From: Phallusia mammillata
Taxonomy: Eukaryota
DNA: 64,000 bases
NCBI GenBank assembly: GCA_965637545.1
Contig: OZ281497.1
Coordinates: 19,530,001-19,594,000, forward strand
Direction: 5' to 3'
Shown here: in pieces, positions 13,201 through 42,844 of the stretch
Layout of the letters: every line of letters begins with the position of its first letter
Numbering within the stretch: the first letter of the stretch is position 1
Position numbers and translations under genes: made by a program
Notes under the pieces: generated by a model
Databases searched by the model: none
What the model saw: the letters and a program-made list of their open reading frames with translations, nothing else
Told to the model about the DNA's origin: nothing

Positions 13201-16200
13201 TGCAAATGCAAAGTCATTAAAATTCCACTCGTTGATGCCCGTAAACACATGTCCCTCGTGGTCGCAATCCATCCATGTGGTAGCGCTTGAAAATCAAAAT
13301 TTCACGCCGACGTCCGGGATTGAAAATTGGCTCCCCAACCTGGTTCGAATCACTTCCGAGGCAGCGCCAAAGGATTCTGCCGGCGACTTTTCTCACAGAA
13401 CTGAGCCAAATGTGGGCCAAGTTCAAAGCTTCTCGGACTGTAGCGAAACGAAGGTTTCCGTCGACGTGATTTCAGGTTTACTGCCCCAAGCTAATTGAAC
13501 AAAAGGTCAAAATCAATATCAGTTAGTCCTCGCGGGCCGTCGGATGAACTCTGTCCGGCTGTAAACTGGCGTTCGATCCAAATTTCAGTATCGAACTGGG
13601 GCACCACGCTAACATCAAGCCGACACAGCGCAACTCGGACGCAATACACGCCCAGTTTATCTGTAGCTATACTGAATTTATTGCGACGCTTGGCCCGAAA
13701 CGAAATTTACTTAGAAGCAACGCAAACAGGACTAAGACGCGCGCGACTGTTTGAAGTCAGTTTTGGAAGCAGTGTCATGCTTTAATCGTCTCTAGCTAGT
13801 TTACATTGTATATTAAAAGATCGTCGTCGCTTCGCGTTCAGTCCAGTTATAGCAGGTGCAATTGATTTCGACCTAATGAAAAGACGTATTATTGTGTGTA
13901 TTTATAGAAATATAAAGTGATAATTATTCAATTTGTGGCGTTATTGTGTAAAAATAGACACATAGAAAATAATATGCACGTACTTGTCTTCAAGTTGTAA
14001 ACATTGGAATAACGTCTGGCATTATGTATTTTGTAAGCGACAATCTTTCATAACCTGGTGGTAGTTGAAACAACTCTCGTCATATTTTAGTCACCACTTG
14101 TAGCTTTGTTTATTAGCCAAGAGCACTCGCAACAAAGTGGATTCAACTGGAGTGTCTTATTTGCGACTCGGGACAACCGGCCTTGCGTATTTTGCCACAA
14201 GCAAAAAGTGCGCGTCGTCGCGATAGGAAAACGCTGAAAGAGGATTCTTGTCGCACGCGTTCGCGCCCACGGAGAGAAAGAATTGAAGCCTAGAGGTTTT
14301 CCCTTTTTTCAACGTGTTCTTTCGCTGCTTGAGATCGAGTCGATCCCAGTATGAGTGGTTTGATTTTAGTGTCGACAGCGGCTTTGTTTTATTCACGCAG
14401 ATCAATGTATGACACTGACAGTTAGATAGCATCTGTTAGGATACAAGTTAACTATGTTGAACAGGTTGTTACAGCGAGATACATTATGTTCGCAAATAGA
14501 CAAAGTTAGACCGGATTGCCAAGGACATTAACTATTTGTATGGCAGCGGATAGCCGGATACTATGTATTATGTCGCAATAAGGATTGGAGTGAATTGGAT
14601 GTAGAAACTAGAAACCTATATAAGGATGCTATAAATACAGTTAAGAGGTCGACTGGTCGGTGTGTTAAGCATTGTGGTTTGTGACTAGCCGTGGAATGCA
14701 CCTTGAACGACACTCATAGACATCTACAACGGCCCTGAGACGGGTGCGCGGGAGTCAAGTTTAATTCATTCATTAAAACACAGTTGCGACTTCGGTACTC
14801 GAGGCCAGGAACGACCAGTTTGTTCAACGAGCACTTGAACCATCTCGAGCTTCTGGAGCGGGGATGTTAAACCAAAAGGAATTCGACGGAAATGAAGGAC
14901 TAGTTGGATTCACAACAGCAACTATCTTTATTTTGTGGGTGCTCGTTTTCGAACAGGTGCGCAAAAATTGGAATTACTTGCATCGTAGGTTCATGATCTC
15001 AGCTTAGAGTAGAAAATGTCATGCGTGGGCGTCTATCGAGATCCGCGTTGTGACCGCAAAACGCTGCTTGGTATCCGGCCGATAATTTCACAATTCTCGA
15101 TGTCAGTTTCGACAACATGGCGCGATAAAAAGTTTGGATTGCAGGCAGGTAGTTAGAAATCTCCGGACAGGAAGACACTATGCTTGTAGGTAATTTTGTG
15201 TCGTTTTAATCCGCTTAGTGCAGCAGATGACAATCGGCACTATCTTACTGACAATACGGGCTTTTGGTTGCGCCTCGCAGTGACTGTTCGACGAAGCTCG
15301 GAGGGTTATGATACAAATACAGGAGAGCGCTGAAGGCGATGGTCGTGCTTACATGCGTCATGGGCAGATTAGCTTTGTGGGACGGAATTCGAGATTTTAC
15401 ATTTTTTAAAGTGCAAAAGGTTAGTCTTGGAAGATTGGTACTTGCAAAGCAGAGGCTTTCAACAGAGTGAGAATTGAGGTTTTCTTCTCGCTTTTCTATA
15501 CGTTAAGCTAGATTCGTCCGTCAATATTTATTTAGCTATTAAGGGGACACCGCTGAATGCAAACATCAGAATCGAACACATTTGTTATTTTCAGCATATC
15601 GCAAGACTTAGTGTAACCAAACTTTTTACCACAACCAACCATGTACCATCATCTTTTTCGCAACCGCTTTCTCACCGTTGCCACTTTCTAATTTGAGATC
15701 AGCGAGTCTACATGGCCGGCTATTAGCTGTCTCGGCGAGCCACAACTCAAGTCAGTTCCTGTCCGCAAGTTTTGTAATTAGACCGTCGGCCGTTTGGTGA
15801 TGTAAAACAACGAAGATAGCACTTACGCACTTGAAAGTGATCCGACGTGACTGTTTACCTGCATTTTGCGTTGGCTTTGTTTCGCCAGCAGGCTCGCGAG
15901 TTAACCTCTAGCCTTGCATTGTGATTGGCTGCGGTTTTTCGGAGGCCTGTTCCTGCTGACAAATGTCAGATCCCCGTGAAGCACCATGCGTAGTTCCTGA
16001 CAAGATGCATTTAATACTTTATGGCTTGTTTACGGTTTTGAAAAGTACAAGGTGTTGTCCACGGCGTGCACAAAAACCATTGCATCGGATAACTCACTGT
16101 GATATTGAGTTTGTGCTGGTGACAGTTGCACGCTGCCTCGCTCCGATTTAATCGAATCTAGTAATTGACAGTGGTTCCGACCGGTTGCATGCAAATGGCA

Positions 16201-16954
16201 AGTGGCGCGTTCGGAAGTTTTCATCATTGATCGGTGTGACGACGAGGACAAAACGAGATTTGACCGTGAATGCCGACGTTTCTTACACATCACTGTCAAC
16301 GAAAGAACGCGCCTCGGCCCTTTATTGCCTGAATTTCACACTTTGCATCATTAACCAATAGCCATACAGTCGCGCGTTCCTAATTTGCTGCCATCGGAAA
16401 CAATTTCTGAAAATTATCACATTAGTGTTTACATTCTCACTGGACAGGTGTCCCAGCTCTTTGCTACAGGAAAAAAGTTTTTGTTTGTAAATGTTGTCTG
16501 TCCAGGCGCGACATATTGAGATGGAATGACCGTTTGTGCGTATGTCGGTTGTTTCCAATTTCACACTTCGCGCCGCACCTATAGCGACATACGGGGGAGT
16601 GGTGTTGTCTCGTTGTCGTAGCATACAGTGAAGAGGCCACTTGAATTCGAAAAACAAGCTTTGATGTTGGCGGTACTACTCCACCGGCGCTGGTGCTCGG
16701 GACCTAACGAAAAAACGAGGCAAGGAGATTCTTACAGGCCCAAAGTAAATGAAATCAGTGCTGAGGGCGAACAAAGTGCCCTGCAATCGATTAGGCTCAA
16801 CACCTTACGTCCAGTTAGTTGCATAGTATGAAGCAGTACAATTGTTGTGATGCGACGTGTTGCCAAATAGTCTCAATTTTGTGACAGATTCAGGTTGTGT
16901 AAATGTTTTCTGATTTGTAGGAAAACGTGGTTATGAAAAAAATGCTTTTACTAA

Positions 16955-17159
16955 ATTTTTTCCTTTCCTTTGCAGCATTAACTTAACATAAGATATTAAG
17001 AAACTGTGAAGTAATGGCTAAAGTGTAGAACCGTGTGGAACTCCTATACAAGAAGAAATAGTGACAGAAACAAATTCAAGAACTCGCCAAGTTACTTTGG
17101 ATGTCTGCAGAGAAGCAGGCGGATTAAATTCCCGGTTGAGACGGAACCTGTCATTCAAG
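16955..17159 (+). other. Strong splice acceptor (AG at 16974-16975) and 5' UTR part of the latrophilin ATG exon; cis- or SL trans-splice site
   Basis: ttttttcctttcctttgcag| 184 nt upstream of the ATG; no coding exon found in the preceding 17 kb. Confidence 0.55.
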
Positions 17160-17244
17160 ATGGAAAATTTACTAACAGGGAAGCGAAGGCGATGTTTCCC
17201 TCTCTACGCACTTGTCTTAGCCCTTGTAATAAACACAGCCAGCG
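17160..17244 (+). CDS. ADGRL: Latrophilin coding exon 1, signal peptide
   Basis: [28 protein letters not shown]: basic n-region plus hydrophobic core. Donor G|GTAAGT is phase 1, matching exon 2. Confidence 0.8.
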
Positions 17245-20200
17245 GTAAGTAGAAGGAAGAAAGCTTGCTTCAGCTGTACTCGCCCACTGTGTGCGTATTT
17301 GCCATGCATAATGCATGATAAGATTGGAGTAATGCACTGCAGACCGGTCCGTGCAGGCCACCAAAACTAATTTCGGCGTTAATTAGGGCAAGGAGTACAA
17401 GTCAGTATTGATTTTAATTTGGGCGTTTAGAGCAAGATTTAGCCTAGATACAACGAAACATGCTGATATAAAAGTTTTTTCTCTCATTTCAGTTCACGGT
17501 TAGTTTCTAAACCTGATTGATTTAATGGTCATGGCCTTGTTACTCATTTCATTTTTCAGTAAATATAGTGCGTGACATGCCTCGGTAAATAATAGTTTGT
17601 TTGTCCATGCACTTAGGGGAAACGTTTTAAGTAGCTACTACTTACAAATTAGGTAAAAAATCTACAACTGTCACGTACAAGGGTTAACCACAACGATAGG
17701 CTGGCCTCTCAGTATGAGGGTTGCACTGATAAACTTGAAAAATTAGGCCCAGTTGTTTACATATTCATTAAGAATATATGGCCCTGGAAGTTATGTTCTA
17801 CACTATGAGTTAGTCGGTGTACAGGGAGGGATTAATACATGCCAGCTTCCCTGGAGTGATCCCATCGTTTGAGGAATAGATCTATGTTGACATAATCTCA
17901 TCTCGCACCAACGGCGTGTTGAAAAACATAAGCCTCGTGGTACACATAGCCCCGCCCGTTCCGTCGAAGCGTTTTCATGCCGCCGAACTAGTGCAAACAC
18001 TCTCTTATCCCGAGTGCCCTATTAATTGAACCAGAATTTGTCACTTTTGTTTGTCGGTGAAAGCCCTGCGCAAACCCAAATCAATGGAAGCGAACAATCG
18101 ACTTTACACCAAGATTAACGGTGCATGACTGTTGATCCTTCCGAGATAACTTGCAGGTGTTTCAGATATGCCATGACGGAAAATATAAACCTGAGCGTTG
18201 ATTCAAACTTCACGCTGGATACAAACATAAGTTTGTCCGTCGGGGCCCGCGTTGCGTATACAGTTGTAATACAGCCATCCGGCCATTTTGTGCGGATCAC
18301 ACATTCCGAACATTTGCGCTCATGTTTATTCAAGCGTATGTAACTTGTTTGGTGCGAACACGTCCTGCCATATTGTTCGCTCGAAGTCGATTTGACAGTT
18401 AAGTGGCGGAATTAGAAGGTTTGCGACGCTTGTCATTGACGCCGCGTGTTCGCCATCTGCTTGTACACTTGCAGCAGGCGGCAATCACCGACAGTGGCGA
18501 AAGCCAACAGACTTGTTTCATTAATAATGCATGGAAATGATTTGCCAACCGCCAGTGATATTGAGTTCTACCACACAAGAGAGATAACCATCAGAGACAG
18601 AAAGTAAATTGGCTGATTTATTGTGTGCAGCAATGCGACATTAATGTCTTTCTGCAAAGGACTGCTTTTGCAAGCTTTGAAATAAAAACCAAACGACAAA
18701 GATCATAAGAAACATTCAACAGTATCAGTGCAACACTGGTACTTCAAACCTAAAGATATTCCAGCTCGCTTGGTGAATGAAAACTTAAATGCACCTTATG
18801 TCAGTAGAATTCTATTTGAATAAGATACTCATGATGTTGTTAGAGCAAGAAATGCCATTTATCCATTTAGGATGTATAACTAAAGTTTTTGTGTATTTAA
18901 ATGCTTTAATAGATGATTTATTTTTGGCAGGCCGGTTAAACTTTGGCGGTGGAACAAACCTCATGTTTCCGATACCAAGTGAATTGGCTTGCGAGAACTA
19001 CCCCATTGTGTTGAGGTGCCCCGGGACGGATGTGATCCAGGTATTTGTCAACCTTAATATCAGGCGACCTGGACCTAAGTTAAGAGCCTTGGCCGCTGGG
19101 CAAAGCCATCTACTTACTAAGGCTTATTAAGCAGCGGCCTTCGCCTAATGGTTAAAATTTATGTTTGGCCTTGTTTGGCCAACGTCGGATCTCCTCGGAG
19201 CCGTGATTCGTCATCGTAATTGACTTAATTGTCCGGGGAATTACCACATTATCACAAGTGTGCTGCTTCCAGTCGTTATTGTTGTCATGAATATTTCAGG
19301 TGGTCGGAGCCGAGTACGGTCGACAGAACGCCGAAACTTGTGTTACAAACCCAGAAAATATGAGAGACACCGACTGCTACATGCCAGAAGCATCAGGCAT
19401 TATGTCTGCCAAGTGAGTAAATGTTTCTGTTATATACAATTTTTCTGTCACATCTTTGCCGACTTCATTAGATTTTAACGTGCTTTGCAATTCACTTTTA
19501 GTTTCATTAATTGCAAGCAAATTCTGTTTAAAAATAAGATATAAAGAGTAGATGTGGAAAATTATGTTTACGATTTCTACTTTTATTGTCATCTTTAAAA
19601 TCGCATCATGTAGAATGTAAATTCGCTAAGTTTTGGCCGACAAACCACATGATGTTGATACCGTCCTAAAATAGCCGCGAAAAATCACTTTCTCCGAAGC
19701 TAATACACGATTTTGGGTAACCCGATGCGGAGACGAGATTGATACGGCGACTTTAACGACGCGGCGGTCTACTCGGCGATCTGTAGCCACTATATACACA
19801 CTGTTGTATCGCCGTGCAATCGCCAGCCTGCTATACAGTCAATGTACTAACTTGCAAGCCACGCGGTCTGCAGTTGCCAACGCCCCGCAGGTCAAATTTC
19901 AGCTCGATAAAATCACTTTGTGGTTTGCTGAAAAGCCGTGGAGATGTGCATGGAATTCCGTCATCGCATCAGGTTGTGTAGGAAGGCTTGTGCTAATTGA
20001 CACGTTGTTTAGACGAGAGCTGGTTCTGTTTGCATGTGTTTGTTGCCGGATTCGCCCAATGCACCTTCGGTCCTTACCATGTCAGAAATACATGCCTGAA
20101 CTATTTTTACTTCAGGCCTAATAAAGAAAATACATGACGGTTCCAGCAATAGGGCTTTGTCACAAGAAAAATTCAACATATTTAATCCAAAAACAACTTG

Positions 20201-32200: not shown

Positions 32201-35200
32201 GCGCTAGCCATCGCTAGGCATTTTAACGTAAACATGTCAACCGACGGCCGACGCTCGTTTACTCTGCTTTATGACGCATTCATGGCGCGCTTCTGGTAAT
32301 TAAATTGTCACTTCAAATGGACTCTAAGCGATGGTTCCCCAGTGGCGCCGCGAACATCGCTCCGGGGTCGCCGCGCCTGCTCTAAACGAGTCAAAGAAAA
32401 ATAAACGCAAACACAATTTTTATAATCGTTATACCCGACTGTGGGGCGGTCGGCGCCGAACTTTTGAAGTAATTTGTGCAGATACACGTGCGATGTCCCA
32501 ATACGGACGCCGATGTAGCAAGGGAACGTGACAAATAAAAGTGTATGCTTGGTTTCGCTCAACCGAGCCTCTATCTTATAAATTTAGTGTCAGGTTACGA
32601 CGTCACCCAAATGACAATCCGCCACGCGACCCGCTCTAATTATATTTGTTTCATAGCGGCCTAAAAATATACCCTTTACATGTGCAACGAGGTGTGATGA
32701 TAAAAATTAATCTCCATTCGCTGTAAATAGGTTGCGTTCTTCTATAAAATGCCTGAAATAATCTGTAATTTGGATGGGTAGCTTTGTTGCCCAATGACAC
32801 ATCTTAATCCTAGTGATCTCGTAAGTTTTTGCATCAACACGTCTCAAACCATCTCCCAAACTCGATACTTCATGTTTGAGCCAAACGGCACCCGACCATA
32901 GCGGGCGCGGCTAGGCCTTTGCTTTGATATTTGCCTGTTTTCCTTGTTCGCAATCTAAAGCCCCTGAAAACCAACAAACCACCGAGGCCCCCAGCACCCA
33001 AATAACCGACAATTACTTGCACAGGAACCTACAGGGAGATCGGAACACGATCCACAAACACCTGTGTCTGAGTCTGTTCGTTGCTGAGCTGGTTTTCCTG
33101 GTGGGAATTAAGCAAACCGATCACCCAATCCCATGTGCAATTGTGGCTGGCATTCTTCACTACACCTTTCTTGCCTCATTTATGTGGATGGCGCTAGAGG
33201 GATTTCAGCTTTACGTAATGCTGGTTGAAGTATTTGAAGGTCGATCAAGATGGAAGTGGTACTACTTGACTGGATATGGTAAGTTTAATCACTTTAAAGT
33301 AAAAACAACAGCTGCAGACTAATGTACTATAAACTTACTTGAAAAGAGTTTCGTAGGAACTTTAGATGATTGAAATTTTAGATGGTGAAACAATGCCAGA
33401 TGTTGTTTACCAGATTTGCCTAATTAGATTATGCTGCTAACGCTTTCATTATGCTGGTAAAGTTGTCAGTTGGCCCTTTCAGGTGAAACGCCAACGTTAA
33501 AGCAATTCAATAGGTCGATAATGATATTTGGCCATGACACACAAACACAGACTTGACGGTCGCCTTTCGGTGTACCAAAATACTCAGCTGTCATTTTGTC
33601 CGATGAAAATCAGCGCTTTGGATCAATTTCTGCCCCTTCGAGATCAATGCCTGGCGCTTATCATGGTAACGGATCGCGCCGACAGTGCTAGCCTTTTCGA
33701 GCCAATGCCATCCGTTCGCTCCCGTGAGACCCTTCGTCCATCCGCAAACGCACACGCTTATCCTGCTAATGGCGAGTGCAAATCTGCCGCGCATCAGAGG
33801 CAGGGGAATCAATTTTGTAGTATCTCGTCGCAACGTTTTCGAAAACAAAAACCCCCGAGTGCTACGTGTGCCATGTACTGCTGTCGTGTTACTGGATTTA
33901 AGGGTCAACTCTGTCTTAATGTAAATTCTTACGCATCCATAAATCATCCTCCCTACGTAGAGTTGACAAACAAAATTCCCCCTATACTGTTTTAATCCAA
34001 TCCATAGAGGAAGTGGGTGTTACTTGGATAATGTTATGACTGTGTCGATATAAATCCGGGTTACTTCACGCAATCCTGAAAATTTCCCGTTGGAGTCTTT
34101 GTACCCTTTAGGCAGAATAGATTAACTTTAAACTGTTTTTATTATTGCAGGAATCCCTGCGGTGATCGTGTGTGTTTCGGCGGTTGTCGATAGTTCAGGA
34201 TATGGTAGTGACACTGCATGTTGGCTGAAAGTTGACTCAGGATTTATATGGAGCTTCGTCGGACCGGTGTGCGCGGTCATCCTCTGCAATCTTATCTTTC
34301 TCGCCATAACTGTATTCAAAATGTACCGACACACTCTCACATACACCGATTCGTCCAAAGTCAACGCAATCAAGTAAGTACACAGCTGACATAAAAACAC
34401 ACAAAAACTCACGGTATTTCATGCTTTTAAATGAATTTAGTCGAAAATGCTGTAGCCCTTAGACAATATCGCTTTAAACACTTTTATTTGACACAAGATA
34501 CACCAAAAGCCCCGGATGCTAAAATAGCCTTCCTGTAACTCAACACCACCAGGAACAGATGCCTAATAGGTGAAGGCGCTTACAGGAATCTCCTAATTTG
34601 CCTGAGTTACTCTTTGACCCCAAAGCGAAGTGCTCAATTATACTGTGTCCGGCGCTTATACGCTATCCCCACATAAAGTACAAAACGTAACCTTCAACTA
34701 TTCCCACAAGTGTACGCACTGAATTGAACACTTCCTTCCATGTGTTAGGGCTTCAGTGCGTGGTGCATCTGTGCTTCTGTGTTTGCTCGGAATCACTTGG
34801 GCTTTTGGAATACTCTGGGTGTGGGAGCAGGCACCTGTCATGGCTTACCTCTTTTGCATCTTTAACGCCTTCCAGGGACTCTGTATCTTTGTCTTCCATT
34901 GTCTGCTGCAAAAAAAGGTCAGTGGTTTTACTTTAATATTATTTTGCATTTGATAGGATTTTGTAATGGATTCCAGCTTGTAATCGTATTGATACTGGTG
35001 GCAATGTCATTTTCTGTTCCATTTTCGTCGCGTTATTTCTAGATTTGACATTAGCGAGAGCACTTACAGTTCCGTTGTAAATTATTGAAAGGTTTGCGGT
35101 TCAGTCGTTCGCATCTATTATTGATGTCTGAGACCGTCAACTTGCAGACGTAAAATCACCGCTTTTGTAGCGTTTCCCAAAACAAACATCAATTCGCATG

Positions 35201-40522: not shown

Positions 40523-42844
40523 CTATAAATAGCAAAGCTAAACGTGATGAATCTAGTTTAGGCTTGTAAGGATTAGGGCTGTGGTTGCCTTAAGTTTGTT
40601 CTGGTGTCTGTGGAGCTACACAGGATCCTGAATTGGTATCAATTTTTGTATTGGGCAAGCCCAACCAAGATTAAGTGTGTACGCAACTGGGCCACAAGCA
40701 CAGTTCGAGGTTGGATTTAACTTAAAAATCTTTGCCAACCCGAGAGGGAGATCAAATGCAAACAACAAGTGAAACCACAGAAAGTCAAATATTCGATTTG
40801 TTTAGCTTTCAGTAGATTTAGGCCCAACCCTTATTCAAAATGTTATCTATTCCATTCTAGCAGAACTGTTTTATATTTAGCAAAAACTTCACAGTACAAA
40901 CACAGATTACTGGCGATGATACGATAAACTAACACTTTAACAGACCTTGAAAGAGCTGCTGCCGAATCAGCTATTTGCTCGTAGTCAACTCCCTTCAGTT
41001 TTTCTTCCAAGTATTCATCAACAACTTCTTTACATTTGGATTGCGACGGTTTTTCGTCAGGTTCCATCCTGTATGTGGGCTCGGCTTCAATCATCGGCAT
41101 GAACTGCTTTCGCACTCCCCTGCTTGTGCGATCGAGCTAAAGCATCAAAGATTAACGGCATAAAACCACGAAAACAATATACATGCATCTCCATTATGTC
41201 ATATCTTCAATAAGATTTTGAAACAATACATGTGCACATATTGGTGTGAAAACTACAACATATGTGTCGGGTTTGTAGTTTTTGTGGGTAAATTCTAAAG
41301 GATGGATGACTTAATGTTTTTCATGAACTTTTGATTCAAGAAGCATAAGGCTCACTATAGTCTTCATCCATATTAGTTTAGATTTTAAAGTATGCAGGAT
41401 AGGGTTTTTCGAAACCAAATGATAATAATATTTTGTTATAGATGGGCTAAAGAGCTAAAATATGTAATCTTGCATGTTATGTGGTTTTAAAACTATGTGA
41501 GACTTTTGTGGTTACCCAGCAAAACGTTCGTTGTTCGCTCTGCTTTTCCACGACTCGTTGCTTGAGATTCCTCGTAAATCTTCTCCAAATCATGATGTCT
41601 TTCAGATTCATGCGACGAGCTTCGTTGAGAACCGGCAAATGGCGACTGTCACTGGTCGAGCTCATACCGCCTGCAGAAAATGCACTTACTGATCCTATTC
41701 TACGTTTCGACATGTTATTAACTGGCCACTGTAAGCAATCTGCAGATATAAGAAAATGCTTGGCAAAGGTTCTGGCATTCACTCAGTGCATTTTAGACTT
41801 TTTCAGCTACTGTACTTTTTCACATTGCACCAAATATGCGATATACAAAGGCGTTTGAGACGTACGTGACAAGTCGAACTTAATATCTGAATTTTATCAT
41901 CGAAAAACGAACACAACCTGCAAATGAATAGCTGGACAGTACATTAAGCGTCCTGCCTGTCAAACACCAATGATTTAATAGCGTAAAGAGTGCCGGTTTC
42001 CACGGTCCCTTGACCTACTGAAGACTTTCAATGGCCACAAAACGCCGTCTTTCACAAGCGTAGCGTCATCATAGACCAATGCAACAATGGATTGACGCTT
42101 ATCTAAACACTATTGACGCAAAACGTACACCGGTGTTGTGTGTTCATAGCGCTCATGTCACATCAATTAGTTTCAACACATCTTGCTAACTGTGCAGAAG
42201 CAACCAACTTCGATACGCTGCTGGGCGCTGCGAGAAGTTGCCGCAGATCGTATGTTTGTTCACAACGTGTAAGCAAGTAACCCAACACATGTTGCCACAA
42301 GGCAAACGATCTGGAATACGCGAGGCAGGCCACACTGAAAAGGCTCTTGTAGACAGCGTATTACAGAACTCTCCCATCCATTGGTACAAAAATGTGTGTC
42401 TATTTTCTCACTGCTTTCCACCTTAAATGTGCTTCTTATGTAAGAGATTCTAAGAATGCACTGCTCGTTCTACTCCCAGCTTTTTGCGGTCCAATTGCCG
42501 CCTGCCCAGGAGGTCCACATTGCCCGAATCGTAGCGCAAAACCATATTTTCGTGGAATCAATTACCGTGCTGAAAGTAACATAAACAAATCCGCTTCCGA
42601 ATTTGTATTCAAACTTTACTGATGGAGCAACAACAAATCTCAGATTCAGGGCAACAGCGGTACGTTATGCAACAATTTCAGTGCGACAGAGCCACTTACT
42701 TTCAGGCATTTGCGAGTGTCGTCGAGATCCGGTTCGGAAAGACGGAAAGGCGCTAGAACGGCGTCTGTTCTCGCTGGAAACAGTGTCATTCGAAGATTCC
42801 AAACTGGAAGACGGCGCCGATAACGATCCAATTCTCCCCGACAT
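40303..42844 (-). CDS. Tctex1-domain dynein light chain (DYNLT4/DYNLT5, TCTEX1D-like) with long N-terminal extension; at least 4 coding exons, start uncertain
   Basis: Exons 42700-42844, 41516-41739, 40946-41136 and 40303-40522 join in phase. The product has EPTYRMEP...RRYKCVVYVSLGQKMDQGVQVGSLCAWDPKSDSYVTCSYQNESLFCIVTVYAVYYE*. Confidence 0.9.
40946..41136 (-). CDS. Tctex1-domain gene exon
   Basis: LDRTSRGVRKQF...EPTYRMEPDEKP...LEEKLKGVDYE...ALSR; phase 0 to 2. Confidence 0.9.
41516..41739 (-). CDS. Tctex1-domain gene, N-terminal extension exon
   Basis: CLQWPVNNMSKRRIGSVSAF...RTFCW|gtaac; phases match both neighbours. Confidence 0.75.
42700..42844 (-). CDS. Tctex1-domain gene, probable first coding exon
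   Basis: MSGRIGSLSAPSSS...RRRSSAFPSF...MPE A|gtaagt, phase 1; acceptors upstream at 42871-42872 and 42881-42882. Confidence 0.6.

What the first reader, a model, noticed from the sequence alone, without database searches (positions are those of the whole stretch)
18809..18930. Exact ascidian spliced-leader 16-mer hard-coded in latrophilin intron 1, followed by in-frame ATGs
Seen: ATTCTATTTGAATAAG at 18809-18824, then ATACTC ATG ATG (18831), with a stop-free frame running into exon 2 ([14 protein letters not shown]...LFLAG|RLNF). Known (recalled): this 16-mer is the Ciona SL exon, and in SL RNA genes it is followed by a GT donor, which is absent here. My rough hand estimate for a chance match in this window is about 1e-4. 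Inference: either a relic of a reverse-transcribed trans-spliced mRNA 5' end inserted in the intron, or a cis-encoded leader for an internal transcript making latrophilin without the exon-1 signal peptide.
Basis: partly seen in the sequence, partly recalled or inferred. Interest (0 to 1): 0.7.

Follow-up and report, generated by a model that had tools for sequence, protein, structure and literature searches.

The report
Spliced-leader-capped Penelope retrotransposon stub
The 16-base leader in this gene's first intron sits at the joint of a short, decayed jumping-gene fragment and is one of hundreds of scattered copies in the genome; it was likely copied from a transposon RNA that had received the cell's spliced leader, which would show that Penelope-type elements copy their processed sense RNA, and the host gene is likely unaffected.

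Summary
The 16-mer, the ATGs and the open frame are real, but the 16-mer is not rare: 3,860 exact copies in the genome, 681 without GT, about 0.15 dispersed copies per 64 kb. It lies inside a decayed ~170-bp insertion (about 18734-18902) from the terminal repeat of a Penelope-like element (PLE). The inverted 3' 'tail' sits left of the SL; a decayed minimal hammerhead ribozyme sits right of it. The 'ATG ATG' is the hammerhead core. In intact parent elements (RT + GIY-YIG ORF) the hammerhead begins 3-5 nt after a splice-acceptor AG. In 165 genomic copies the SL's 3' end replaces the sequence upstream of exactly that AG; young copies have 10-14 bp target duplications. The stub was therefore most likely reverse-transcribed from SL-trans-spliced, sense PLE RNA, with two RT starts (about +85, +164). 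RNA contigs of 4 of 4 runs splice latrophilin exon 1 to exon 2 across the site. SL-capped PLEs were not found in seven literature searches, nor earlier in this scan. They bear on the sense-versus-antisense template question.

The parts
18734..18808 (-). Left arm: inverted 3' 'tail' of the PLE terminal repeat (model positions about 83-163); homology may reach to about 18723
   Evidence: nhmmer with profiles built without the window: E 5e-5 (family A, positions 83-163) and 7e-7 (family B, 82-151); pairwise alignment to L134; about 250 first-look candidates for this segment in the genome
18809..18824 (+). Spliced-leader exon, 16/16, at the head-to-head joint of the two arms; inferred 5' end of the template RNA
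   Evidence: same position in relatives L103, L104, L141
18825..18864 (+). Decayed minimal type I hammerhead: ATA, core CTCATGA (G5 changed to C), bulged T, damaged helix II, GAAA at 18849-18852, helix I GATA/TATC retained; predicted inactive
   Evidence: Best hit of the covariance model in the 64-kb window, 18820-18867, but weak alone (13.1 bits, E 0.41); anchored alignment score 34 against a maximum of 26 in 528 shuffles
18865..18902 (+). Rest of the right arm, to about position +83 of the repeat (weakly alignable)
   Evidence: family B profile positions 2-83 on 18825-18902, E 5, not significant alone; BLAST to L104 over 18768-18890 at 71%
18831..18930 (+). Stop-free frame into exon 2; its ATG ATG are hammerhead core letters A6-U7-G8 and A9-U-G10.1; judged incidental
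   Evidence: core alignment
16976..17244 (+). Latrophilin first spliced exon (ATG at 17160, signal-peptide-like); begins right after a polypyrimidine-CAG acceptor, a possible true trans-splice site
   Evidence: RNA contigs start at 16976 (X11, X17) and 16977 (X13) (weak hint); acceptor sequence and translation
18931..19040 (+). Latrophilin exon 2 (start of the lectin domain), joined to exon 1
   Evidence: GT..AG joint in 4 of 4 runs

Best explanation
The SL 16-mer is the joint of a decayed ~170-bp two-armed fragment of a Penelope-like retroelement terminal repeat, which was likely reverse-transcribed from a sense PLE RNA that had been SL-trans-spliced at the acceptor in front of the element's hammerhead ribozyme, and it is likely a neutral passenger in the latrophilin intron. 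Shown: the repeat family belongs to elements with an RT + GIY-YIG ORF; the hammerhead starts 3-5 nt after a polypyrimidine-YAG; in SL-led copies the SL replaces everything upstream of that AG; copies end near +85 or +164; young copies have target-site duplications; the window has the tail (+83 to +163) on the minus strand abutting SL-to-+83 on the plus strand. Inferred: (1) the host spliceosome trans-splices SL onto this acceptor; (2) the PLE protein nicks both target strands and primes reverse transcription at two internal sites, about +164 and +85; (3) the +85 cDNA runs to the RNA's SL end, the +164 cDNA copies the tail, and the two are joined head-to-head; (4) because RT starts so near the cap, such events give short dead-end stubs; (5) the copy then decayed.
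For: Hammerhead motif: 536 genomic hits, 0 in control; helix I covaries (A-U, U-A, G-C, C-G), 91.9% of 198 cells paired, covariation 0.411 vs 0.207 shuffled, 0 of 500 shuffles as high, slid controls 31-52%. Parent ORFs: 949-aa RT + GIY-YIG ORF between two direct repeats 3,311 bp apart (L168), and family A itself behind an RT/GIY-YIG ORF (L167); GIY-YIG above the Pfam cut-off in 2 of 3 fragments. SL-end + intact core 165 (control 0) vs YAG + core 1,022 (control 10). Family A: 12 SL-led, 17 acceptor-led, 4 unclear of 33 heads in 30 loci, two heads counted twice. Exact 10-14 bp flanking duplications in 8 of 15 young loci. Same inverted-tail geometry in L104 (arms 1-85 and 86-163), L141 and L140. 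28 of 87 exact-SL loci (85 of the 86 on C1, plus 2) have a hammerhead head right after the SL; only 1 of 87 has GTAAG. 0 of 56 SL-led heads resemble the SL-gene upstream (at most 6 of 12 letters). Exon 1-exon 2 joint across the site in 4 of 4 runs. Literature: intron 3' end at hammerhead helix I in D. virilis Penelope and the bulged base after A9 (PMC4209133); two internal RT start sites bounding the tail, both strands nicked, uncleaved RNA as template (PMC11167929).
Against: The window's right arm is weak alone (CM E 0.41, second-best hit 12.9 vs 13.1 bits; HMM E 3.5-5). No target-site duplication is recognisable around the window copy (best 6 of 7). The SL is 16/16 while the flanks are only about 70-85% like the nearest copies; I put this down to ascertainment on the exact 16-mer and an older subfamily (SLs of family A copies found by their head score 14-16 of 16), but did not test selection on it. 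No SL-PLE RNA was observed directly. RT hits fall below Pfam's curated cut-off. Family B seeds came from a search started with the window's own sequence, so that profile is partly circular; family A less so. The tail here is about 80 nt against 30-40 nt in the papers.
Confidence: 0.86

Rival explanations
1. The stub arose as above but was co-opted: a minor latrophilin transcript starts at the genomic SL, or is trans-spliced at the SL's own AG (18824), and makes a receptor without the exon-1 signal peptide.
For: SL intact at 16/16 amid decayed flanks; ATGs in frame and stop-free to exon 2 (joint chance roughly 2-5%, post hoc); element present in DNA contigs of two studies with no empty allele seen.
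Against: Contigs in 4 of 4 runs skip the site; the ATGs are hammerhead core letters; with about 680 dispersed copies some in-frame cases are expected. Contigs drop rare isoforms, so a minor form is not excluded.
Confidence: 0.05
2. The SL joined the PLE at the DNA or cDNA level: insertion into an SL gene or orphan (as SL-targeting retroposons do, recalled), or an RT template switch onto SL RNA or an SL-capped mRNA, without trans-splicing of PLE RNA.
For: SL RNA genes are very abundant here (3,179 SL-GT copies); both partners end in AG, a 2-nt microhomology; PLE RT is prone to inversions and jumps.
Against: The joint falls at each family's own acceptor AG across many families; no SL-gene upstream sequence in 56 of 56 heads; no SL-intron letters at the joint; target duplications lie directly outside the SL.
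Confidence: 0.06
3. It is a retrocopy of the 5' end of an SL-capped host-gene mRNA, or an orphan SL RNA gene.
For: SL relics on retrogenes are described in dinoflagellates (PMC5585692, PMC6050394; listing abstracts only); some other dispersed copies here look like host-gene pieces (L021, not tested).
Against: All 4 non-self genomic matches of 18740-18930 are PLE-repeat copies; no GT donor and no SL-gene flanks.
Confidence: 0.03

Closest known systems
EN+ Penelope-like elements with minimal hammerheads in their pLTRs (Cervera and de la Pena 2014, PMC4209133; clade traits from Craig et al. 2021, PMC8557442)
   Same: Single ORF with RT and C-terminal GIY-YIG, two Cys between GIY and YIG, linker Cys/His motif (Neptune/Nematis type), minimal type I hammerhead with bulged base after A9 and palindromic helix III, solo and opposite-strand copies, intron 3' end at helix I as in D. 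virilis Penelope.
   Different: The acceptor takes a trans-spliced leader, and SL-led copies are fixed in the genome by the hundred; none of the passages read mention SL or tunicates.
Anolis Poseidon PAc internal RT initiation and the PLE 'tail' (Frangieh et al. 2024, PMC11167929)
   Same: Two 3' end points downstream of the hammerhead, nicks on both strands, uncleaved RNA as template.
   Different: End points are about 80 nt apart and lie upstream of the ORF start (ATG about +197 in L168); the template's 5' end is marked by the SL.
Genome-encoded SL on retrocopies: dinoflagellate retrogenes (PMC5585692, PMC6050394); six SL-bearing transposable elements in Schistosoma mansoni (PMC5832876)
   Same: An SL in DNA without its donor marks reverse transcription of a trans-spliced RNA.
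   Different: There the carriers are host genes or a few unspecified elements that the authors thought might be misassembled; here they are PLE terminal-repeat stubs with a precise joint and target duplications.
L1 twin priming (recalled, no call)
   Same: 5' part inverted against the 3' part, the two 5' ends joined.
   Different: Both priming sites are fixed element positions rather than poly(A) plus a chance internal match.

Membership tests
EN+ Penelope-like element (family of the repeat) | ORF with RT and C-terminal GIY-YIG endonuclease linked to this terminal repeat | tested here: met
   L167 (family A) and L168: RVT_1 E 7e-6 to 4e-5, GIY-YIG E 0.004-0.009, below curated cut-offs; GIY-YIG above cut-off in L073 and L084. 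The window copy itself has no ORF.
EN+ Penelope-like element (family of the repeat) | Two Cys between GIY and YIG; extra linker Zn-finger-like motif (Neptune/Nematis) | tested here: met
   GIYVATCRICNAQYVG and CGHCALCGH read in the translations; motif definitions from PMC8557442
EN+ Penelope-like element (family of the repeat) | Clade assignment by RT phylogeny (Neptune vs Nematis) | not tested
   No reference PLE proteins were fetched
EN+ Penelope-like element (family of the repeat) | pLTRs in tandem or inverted arrangement with a tail | tested here: met
   Direct repeats 3,311 bp apart plus an inverted copy in L168; inverted pairs in L167, L169-L173; ends near +85 and +164
EN+ Penelope-like element (window copy) | Homology to the pLTR in PLE geometry | tested here: met
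   Left arm E 5e-5 and 7e-7; right arm weak alone but above all 528 shuffles in the anchored test; arms meet at position 83
EN+ Penelope-like element (window copy) | Target-site duplication | tested here: inconclusive
   None recognisable; present in 8 of 15 young relatives
Minimal type I hammerhead (family) | CUGANGA...GAAA core with covarying helices I and II | tested here: met
   alignment chosen by the core pattern and structure set by me. Rfam gave no hammerhead hit on 17 loci.
Minimal type I hammerhead (window copy) | Intact catalytic core | tested here: not met
   G5 is C (18830), helix II and the palindrome are damaged
Minimal type I hammerhead | Self-cleavage | not testable with these tools
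   needs an in vitro assay
SL RNA gene | SL followed by GT donor, with SL-gene flanks | tested here: not met
   Array unit has GTAAGCATC after the SL; the window has ATACTC
Host-gene retrocopy | Sequence after the SL matches a host exon elsewhere | tested here: not met
   4 of 4 non-self matches are PLE repeat copies
Non-LTR retrozyme | Tandem arrays of hammerhead monomers | tested here: not met
   Single two-armed copy in the window; definition from the abstract of 10.64898/2026.07.22.740005

The most novel reading that the evidence does not exclude
Ascidian Penelope-like elements keep a splice acceptor fused to helix I of their hammerhead so that host SL trans-splicing caps their mRNA. The genome then records each template: SL-led stubs prove sense, spliced RNA is copied, SL-SL hinges explain the head-to-head palindromes without antisense RNA, and because RT starts within about 165 nt of the cap, spliced RNA yields only stubs, so full-length copies come from unspliced read-through RNA. 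That would explain PLE 'intron retention'.
Probability: 0.45. Interest if true: 0.7.

Novelty: new variant of a known kind. Interest (0 to 1): 0.52.

Why it matters
For latrophilin it matters little. For retroelement biology, the template strand and the cause of intron retention in PLEs were left open in PMC3846280, which read head-to-head palindromes as self-priming on an antisense template and asked for experiments. An SL can be added only to a sense RNA, so hundreds of SL-led copies, some with the SL at the palindromic hinge, give a natural label of the template's strand, splicing state and 5' end in a chordate. It is also a caution: exact SL matches in ascidian DNA are mostly retroelement footprints and can mislead trans-splicing and gene-start annotation.

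Tried and rejected
Rfam scan of 17 SL loci: no hammerhead or SL family hit, only hairpin look-alikes from inverted repeats. A first guess from the ATGATG letters, a C/D-box snoRNA, was dropped when the GAAA and covarying helices appeared. Run search: no RNA holder on record; runs were only guessed RNA, though their GT..AG joints show spliced RNA. No RNA contig covered 18827-18929; lack of cover alone is no evidence. Runs X6 and X9 did not cover the element. TSD search at the window copy failed. tblastn with 4 PLE proteins found an ORF near 0 of 40 SL-led loci and 17 of 60 loci found by the hammerhead head; the two sets differ in flank length and direction, and the control ORFs lie mostly upstream, so this shows only that SL-led copies are stubs. 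One metagenome SL-hammerhead segment had no match in G000; an empty answer does not prove another species. The 35-aa exon 2 peptide alone gave no Pfam hit. Earlier scan notes: nothing on this genome or this idea.

Full report
OBSERVATION. The 16-mer is at 18809-18824, unique in the window, followed by ATACTC ATG ATG and a stop-free frame into exon 2. The gene is a latrophilin (SUEL, OLF, GPS, 7tm_2). The 16-mer is the major Ciona SL (PMC1488885, Table 1). This species uses it too: a 553-bp tandem array has it before GTAAG, and one RNA contig carries it right after a tag that I recall as a template-switch oligo end. It is not rare: 3,860 exact genomic copies, control 0; 3,179 with GT; 681 without. 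Contig C1 has 86 in 36.4 Mb, about 0.15 per 64 kb.

WHAT FOLLOWS DISPERSED SL COPIES. Many continue as NNN-CTGANGA-T-GCC...GGC-GAAA-TATATA, a minimal type I hammerhead. The motif has 536 hits, control 0. On 22 copies, 91.9% of 198 cells pair, helix I shows A-U, U-A, G-C and C-G exchanges, and no shuffle of 500 reaches the covariation score; the set was chosen by the core pattern and the structure was set by me. Rfam did not recognise it on 17 loci. Of 87 exact-SL loci (85 of 86 on C1 plus 2 on C2), 28 have such a head right after the SL (23 of 80 distinct), above all 528 shuffles; the window copy scores 34 against a shuffle maximum of 26; only 1 of 87 has GTAAG. The remaining 59 are LINE starts, other repeat families or unclassified.

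THE PARENT. The hammerhead lies in the terminal repeat of elements with an RT + GIY-YIG ORF: a 949-aa ORF between direct repeats in L168, and family A behind such an ORF in L167. The CxxC between GIY and YIG and the linker CGHCALCGH fit the Neptune/Nematis type; no tree was built. In these copies the hammerhead starts 3-5 nt after a polypyrimidine-YAG. In SL-led copies the SL replaces all upstream sequence and its final AG stands where the acceptor AG stood. Counts: 165 SL-end + core and 1,022 YAG + core, about 14%; the patterns differ slightly and decayed SLs are missed. In family A, 12 of 33 heads are SL-led, 17 acceptor-led, 4 unclear, with two heads counted twice. Exact 10-14 bp flanking duplications occur in 8 of 15 young loci. 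None of 56 SL-led heads carries SL-gene upstream sequence. None of 40 SL-led loci has a PLE ORF within about 4.4 kb downstream (control 17 of 60, not like for like).

THE WINDOW COPY. A search with 18740-18930 gave 4 non-self matches, all of this repeat. Profiles built without the window place repeat positions 83-163 on the minus strand at 18808-18734 (E 5e-5; second profile 7e-7), and positions 1-83 on the plus strand at 18825-18902 (E 3.5-5, weak). The covariance model's best hit in the window is 18820-18867, weak alone (E 0.41). The arms meet at the SL with almost no gap or overlap. L104 (1-85 and 86-163), L141 and the intron-led L140 have the same build. The core has G5 changed to C and helix II is damaged, so the ribozyme is predicted dead. 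No TSD is recognisable. DNA contigs of two studies hold the element with no empty allele.

EFFECT ON THE GENE. Contigs from 4 of 4 runs join 17244 to 18931 across the element. Three begin at 16976-16977, right after a polypyrimidine-CAG, a weak hint that the gene's own SL is added there. Contigs drop rare isoforms, so a minor start at the stub is not excluded. The frame's chance is about 5-15% for no stop, times one third for phase, judged after the fact among about 680 copies.

MECHANISM. Shown: precise SL-acceptor joint, two fixed 3' ends (about +85 and +164), TSDs, two-armed head-to-head builds in which one arm ends at +85 and the other at +164. Inferred: trans-splicing caps the sense RNA; nicks on both target strands prime RT at the two sites, as in vitro for the anole element (PMC11167929); each cDNA runs toward the 5' end; when both reach the SL a palindromic SL-SL hinge results (L056, L139, L165). 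PMC3846280 took such palindromes to need an antisense template and left the matter open. These copies show that sense, spliced RNA is a template; they do not show that antisense templates are never used. No SL-PLE RNA was seen directly.

GENERALITY. A metagenome scan gave 7 loci: three share an SL-led hammerhead-like head in an inverted build with the SL at the hinge, three match the hammerhead model (E 1e-7 to 1e-4; two are the same sequence), one looks like chance. One tested segment had no match in G000, so other ascidians may share the trait; this is a hint only.

WHAT IS KNOWN. Read: PMC4209133 (parts 1-2 of 4: abstract, results, discussion); PMC11167929 (parts 1-2 of 4: main text); PMC3846280 (passages and Discussion); PMC8557442 (passages and Introduction); PMC1488885 (passages, Table 1); PMC5832876 (passages: six SL-bearing elements, misassembly not excluded); 10.64898/2026.07.22.740005 (listing and passages, no hit for leader or tunicates); PMC5585692 and PMC6050394 (listing only). 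Seven searches listed no paper on SL-capped PLEs; the library lacks most subscription papers, Repbase and Dfam, and supplements were not read. L1 twin priming, SL-targeting retroposons and Yeats 2010 are recalled.

VERDICT. The locus is an ordinary dead retroelement stub; the class it reveals is a new variant of a known kind with a real bearing on PLE mechanism. Confidence in the best explanation 0.86; interest 0.52.

Noticed in passing
L003:1501-3015 +, L008:1501-3014 +, L036 (minus strand, from the SL): Exact SL directly at the 5' end of two-ORF LINE-like elements (coiled-coil ORF1, then an APE-type endonuclease in L003 and L008, Pfam E 1e-4 to 7e-4). Full-length LINE RNAs also appear to be SL-capped.
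   Followed up: partly
L041 (G000:C3:11108000-11110000) and onward: SL RNA gene array with a 553-bp unit; 3,179 SL-GT copies in the assembly, most presumably in such arrays.
   Followed up: partly
L001, L193, L196, L207, L213 (SL at locus centre): A repeat family whose shared sequence lies upstream of the SL (ending TGTTTATG or similar) and is followed by about CAATAAAATAAGTT: the SL seems to sit near an element's 3' end. Unexplained.
   Followed up: partly
L004-L006, L183, L184, L214; L026, L186, L187, L210; L182, L185, L202; L009-L014: Other multi-copy repeats carry an internal SL, some as degraded tandem SLs; an SL-hammerhead stub is amplified inside a larger repeat in L009-L014.
   Followed up: no
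window 41289-41370 +: A second, better-preserved fragment of the same PLE terminal repeat (E 5e-15).
   Followed up: partly
window 34548-34596 +: Possible second decayed hammerhead (12.9 bits, E 0.49) inside the latrophilin gene; not significant.
   Followed up: no
window 15601-16740 and 16976: RNA contigs of run X17 cover sequence upstream of the acceptor at 16976, possibly the outron of a trans-spliced latrophilin pre-mRNA, or DNA carry-over.
   Followed up: no
G000:C3:746149-746244: Four SL copies in tandem at 24-bp period (listing).
   Followed up: no
L168:2142-4988 -: Apparently intact 949-aa PLE ORF in partial tandem; SL-led stubs of the same family exist (L230, L250). A candidate for in vitro work.
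   Followed up: partly
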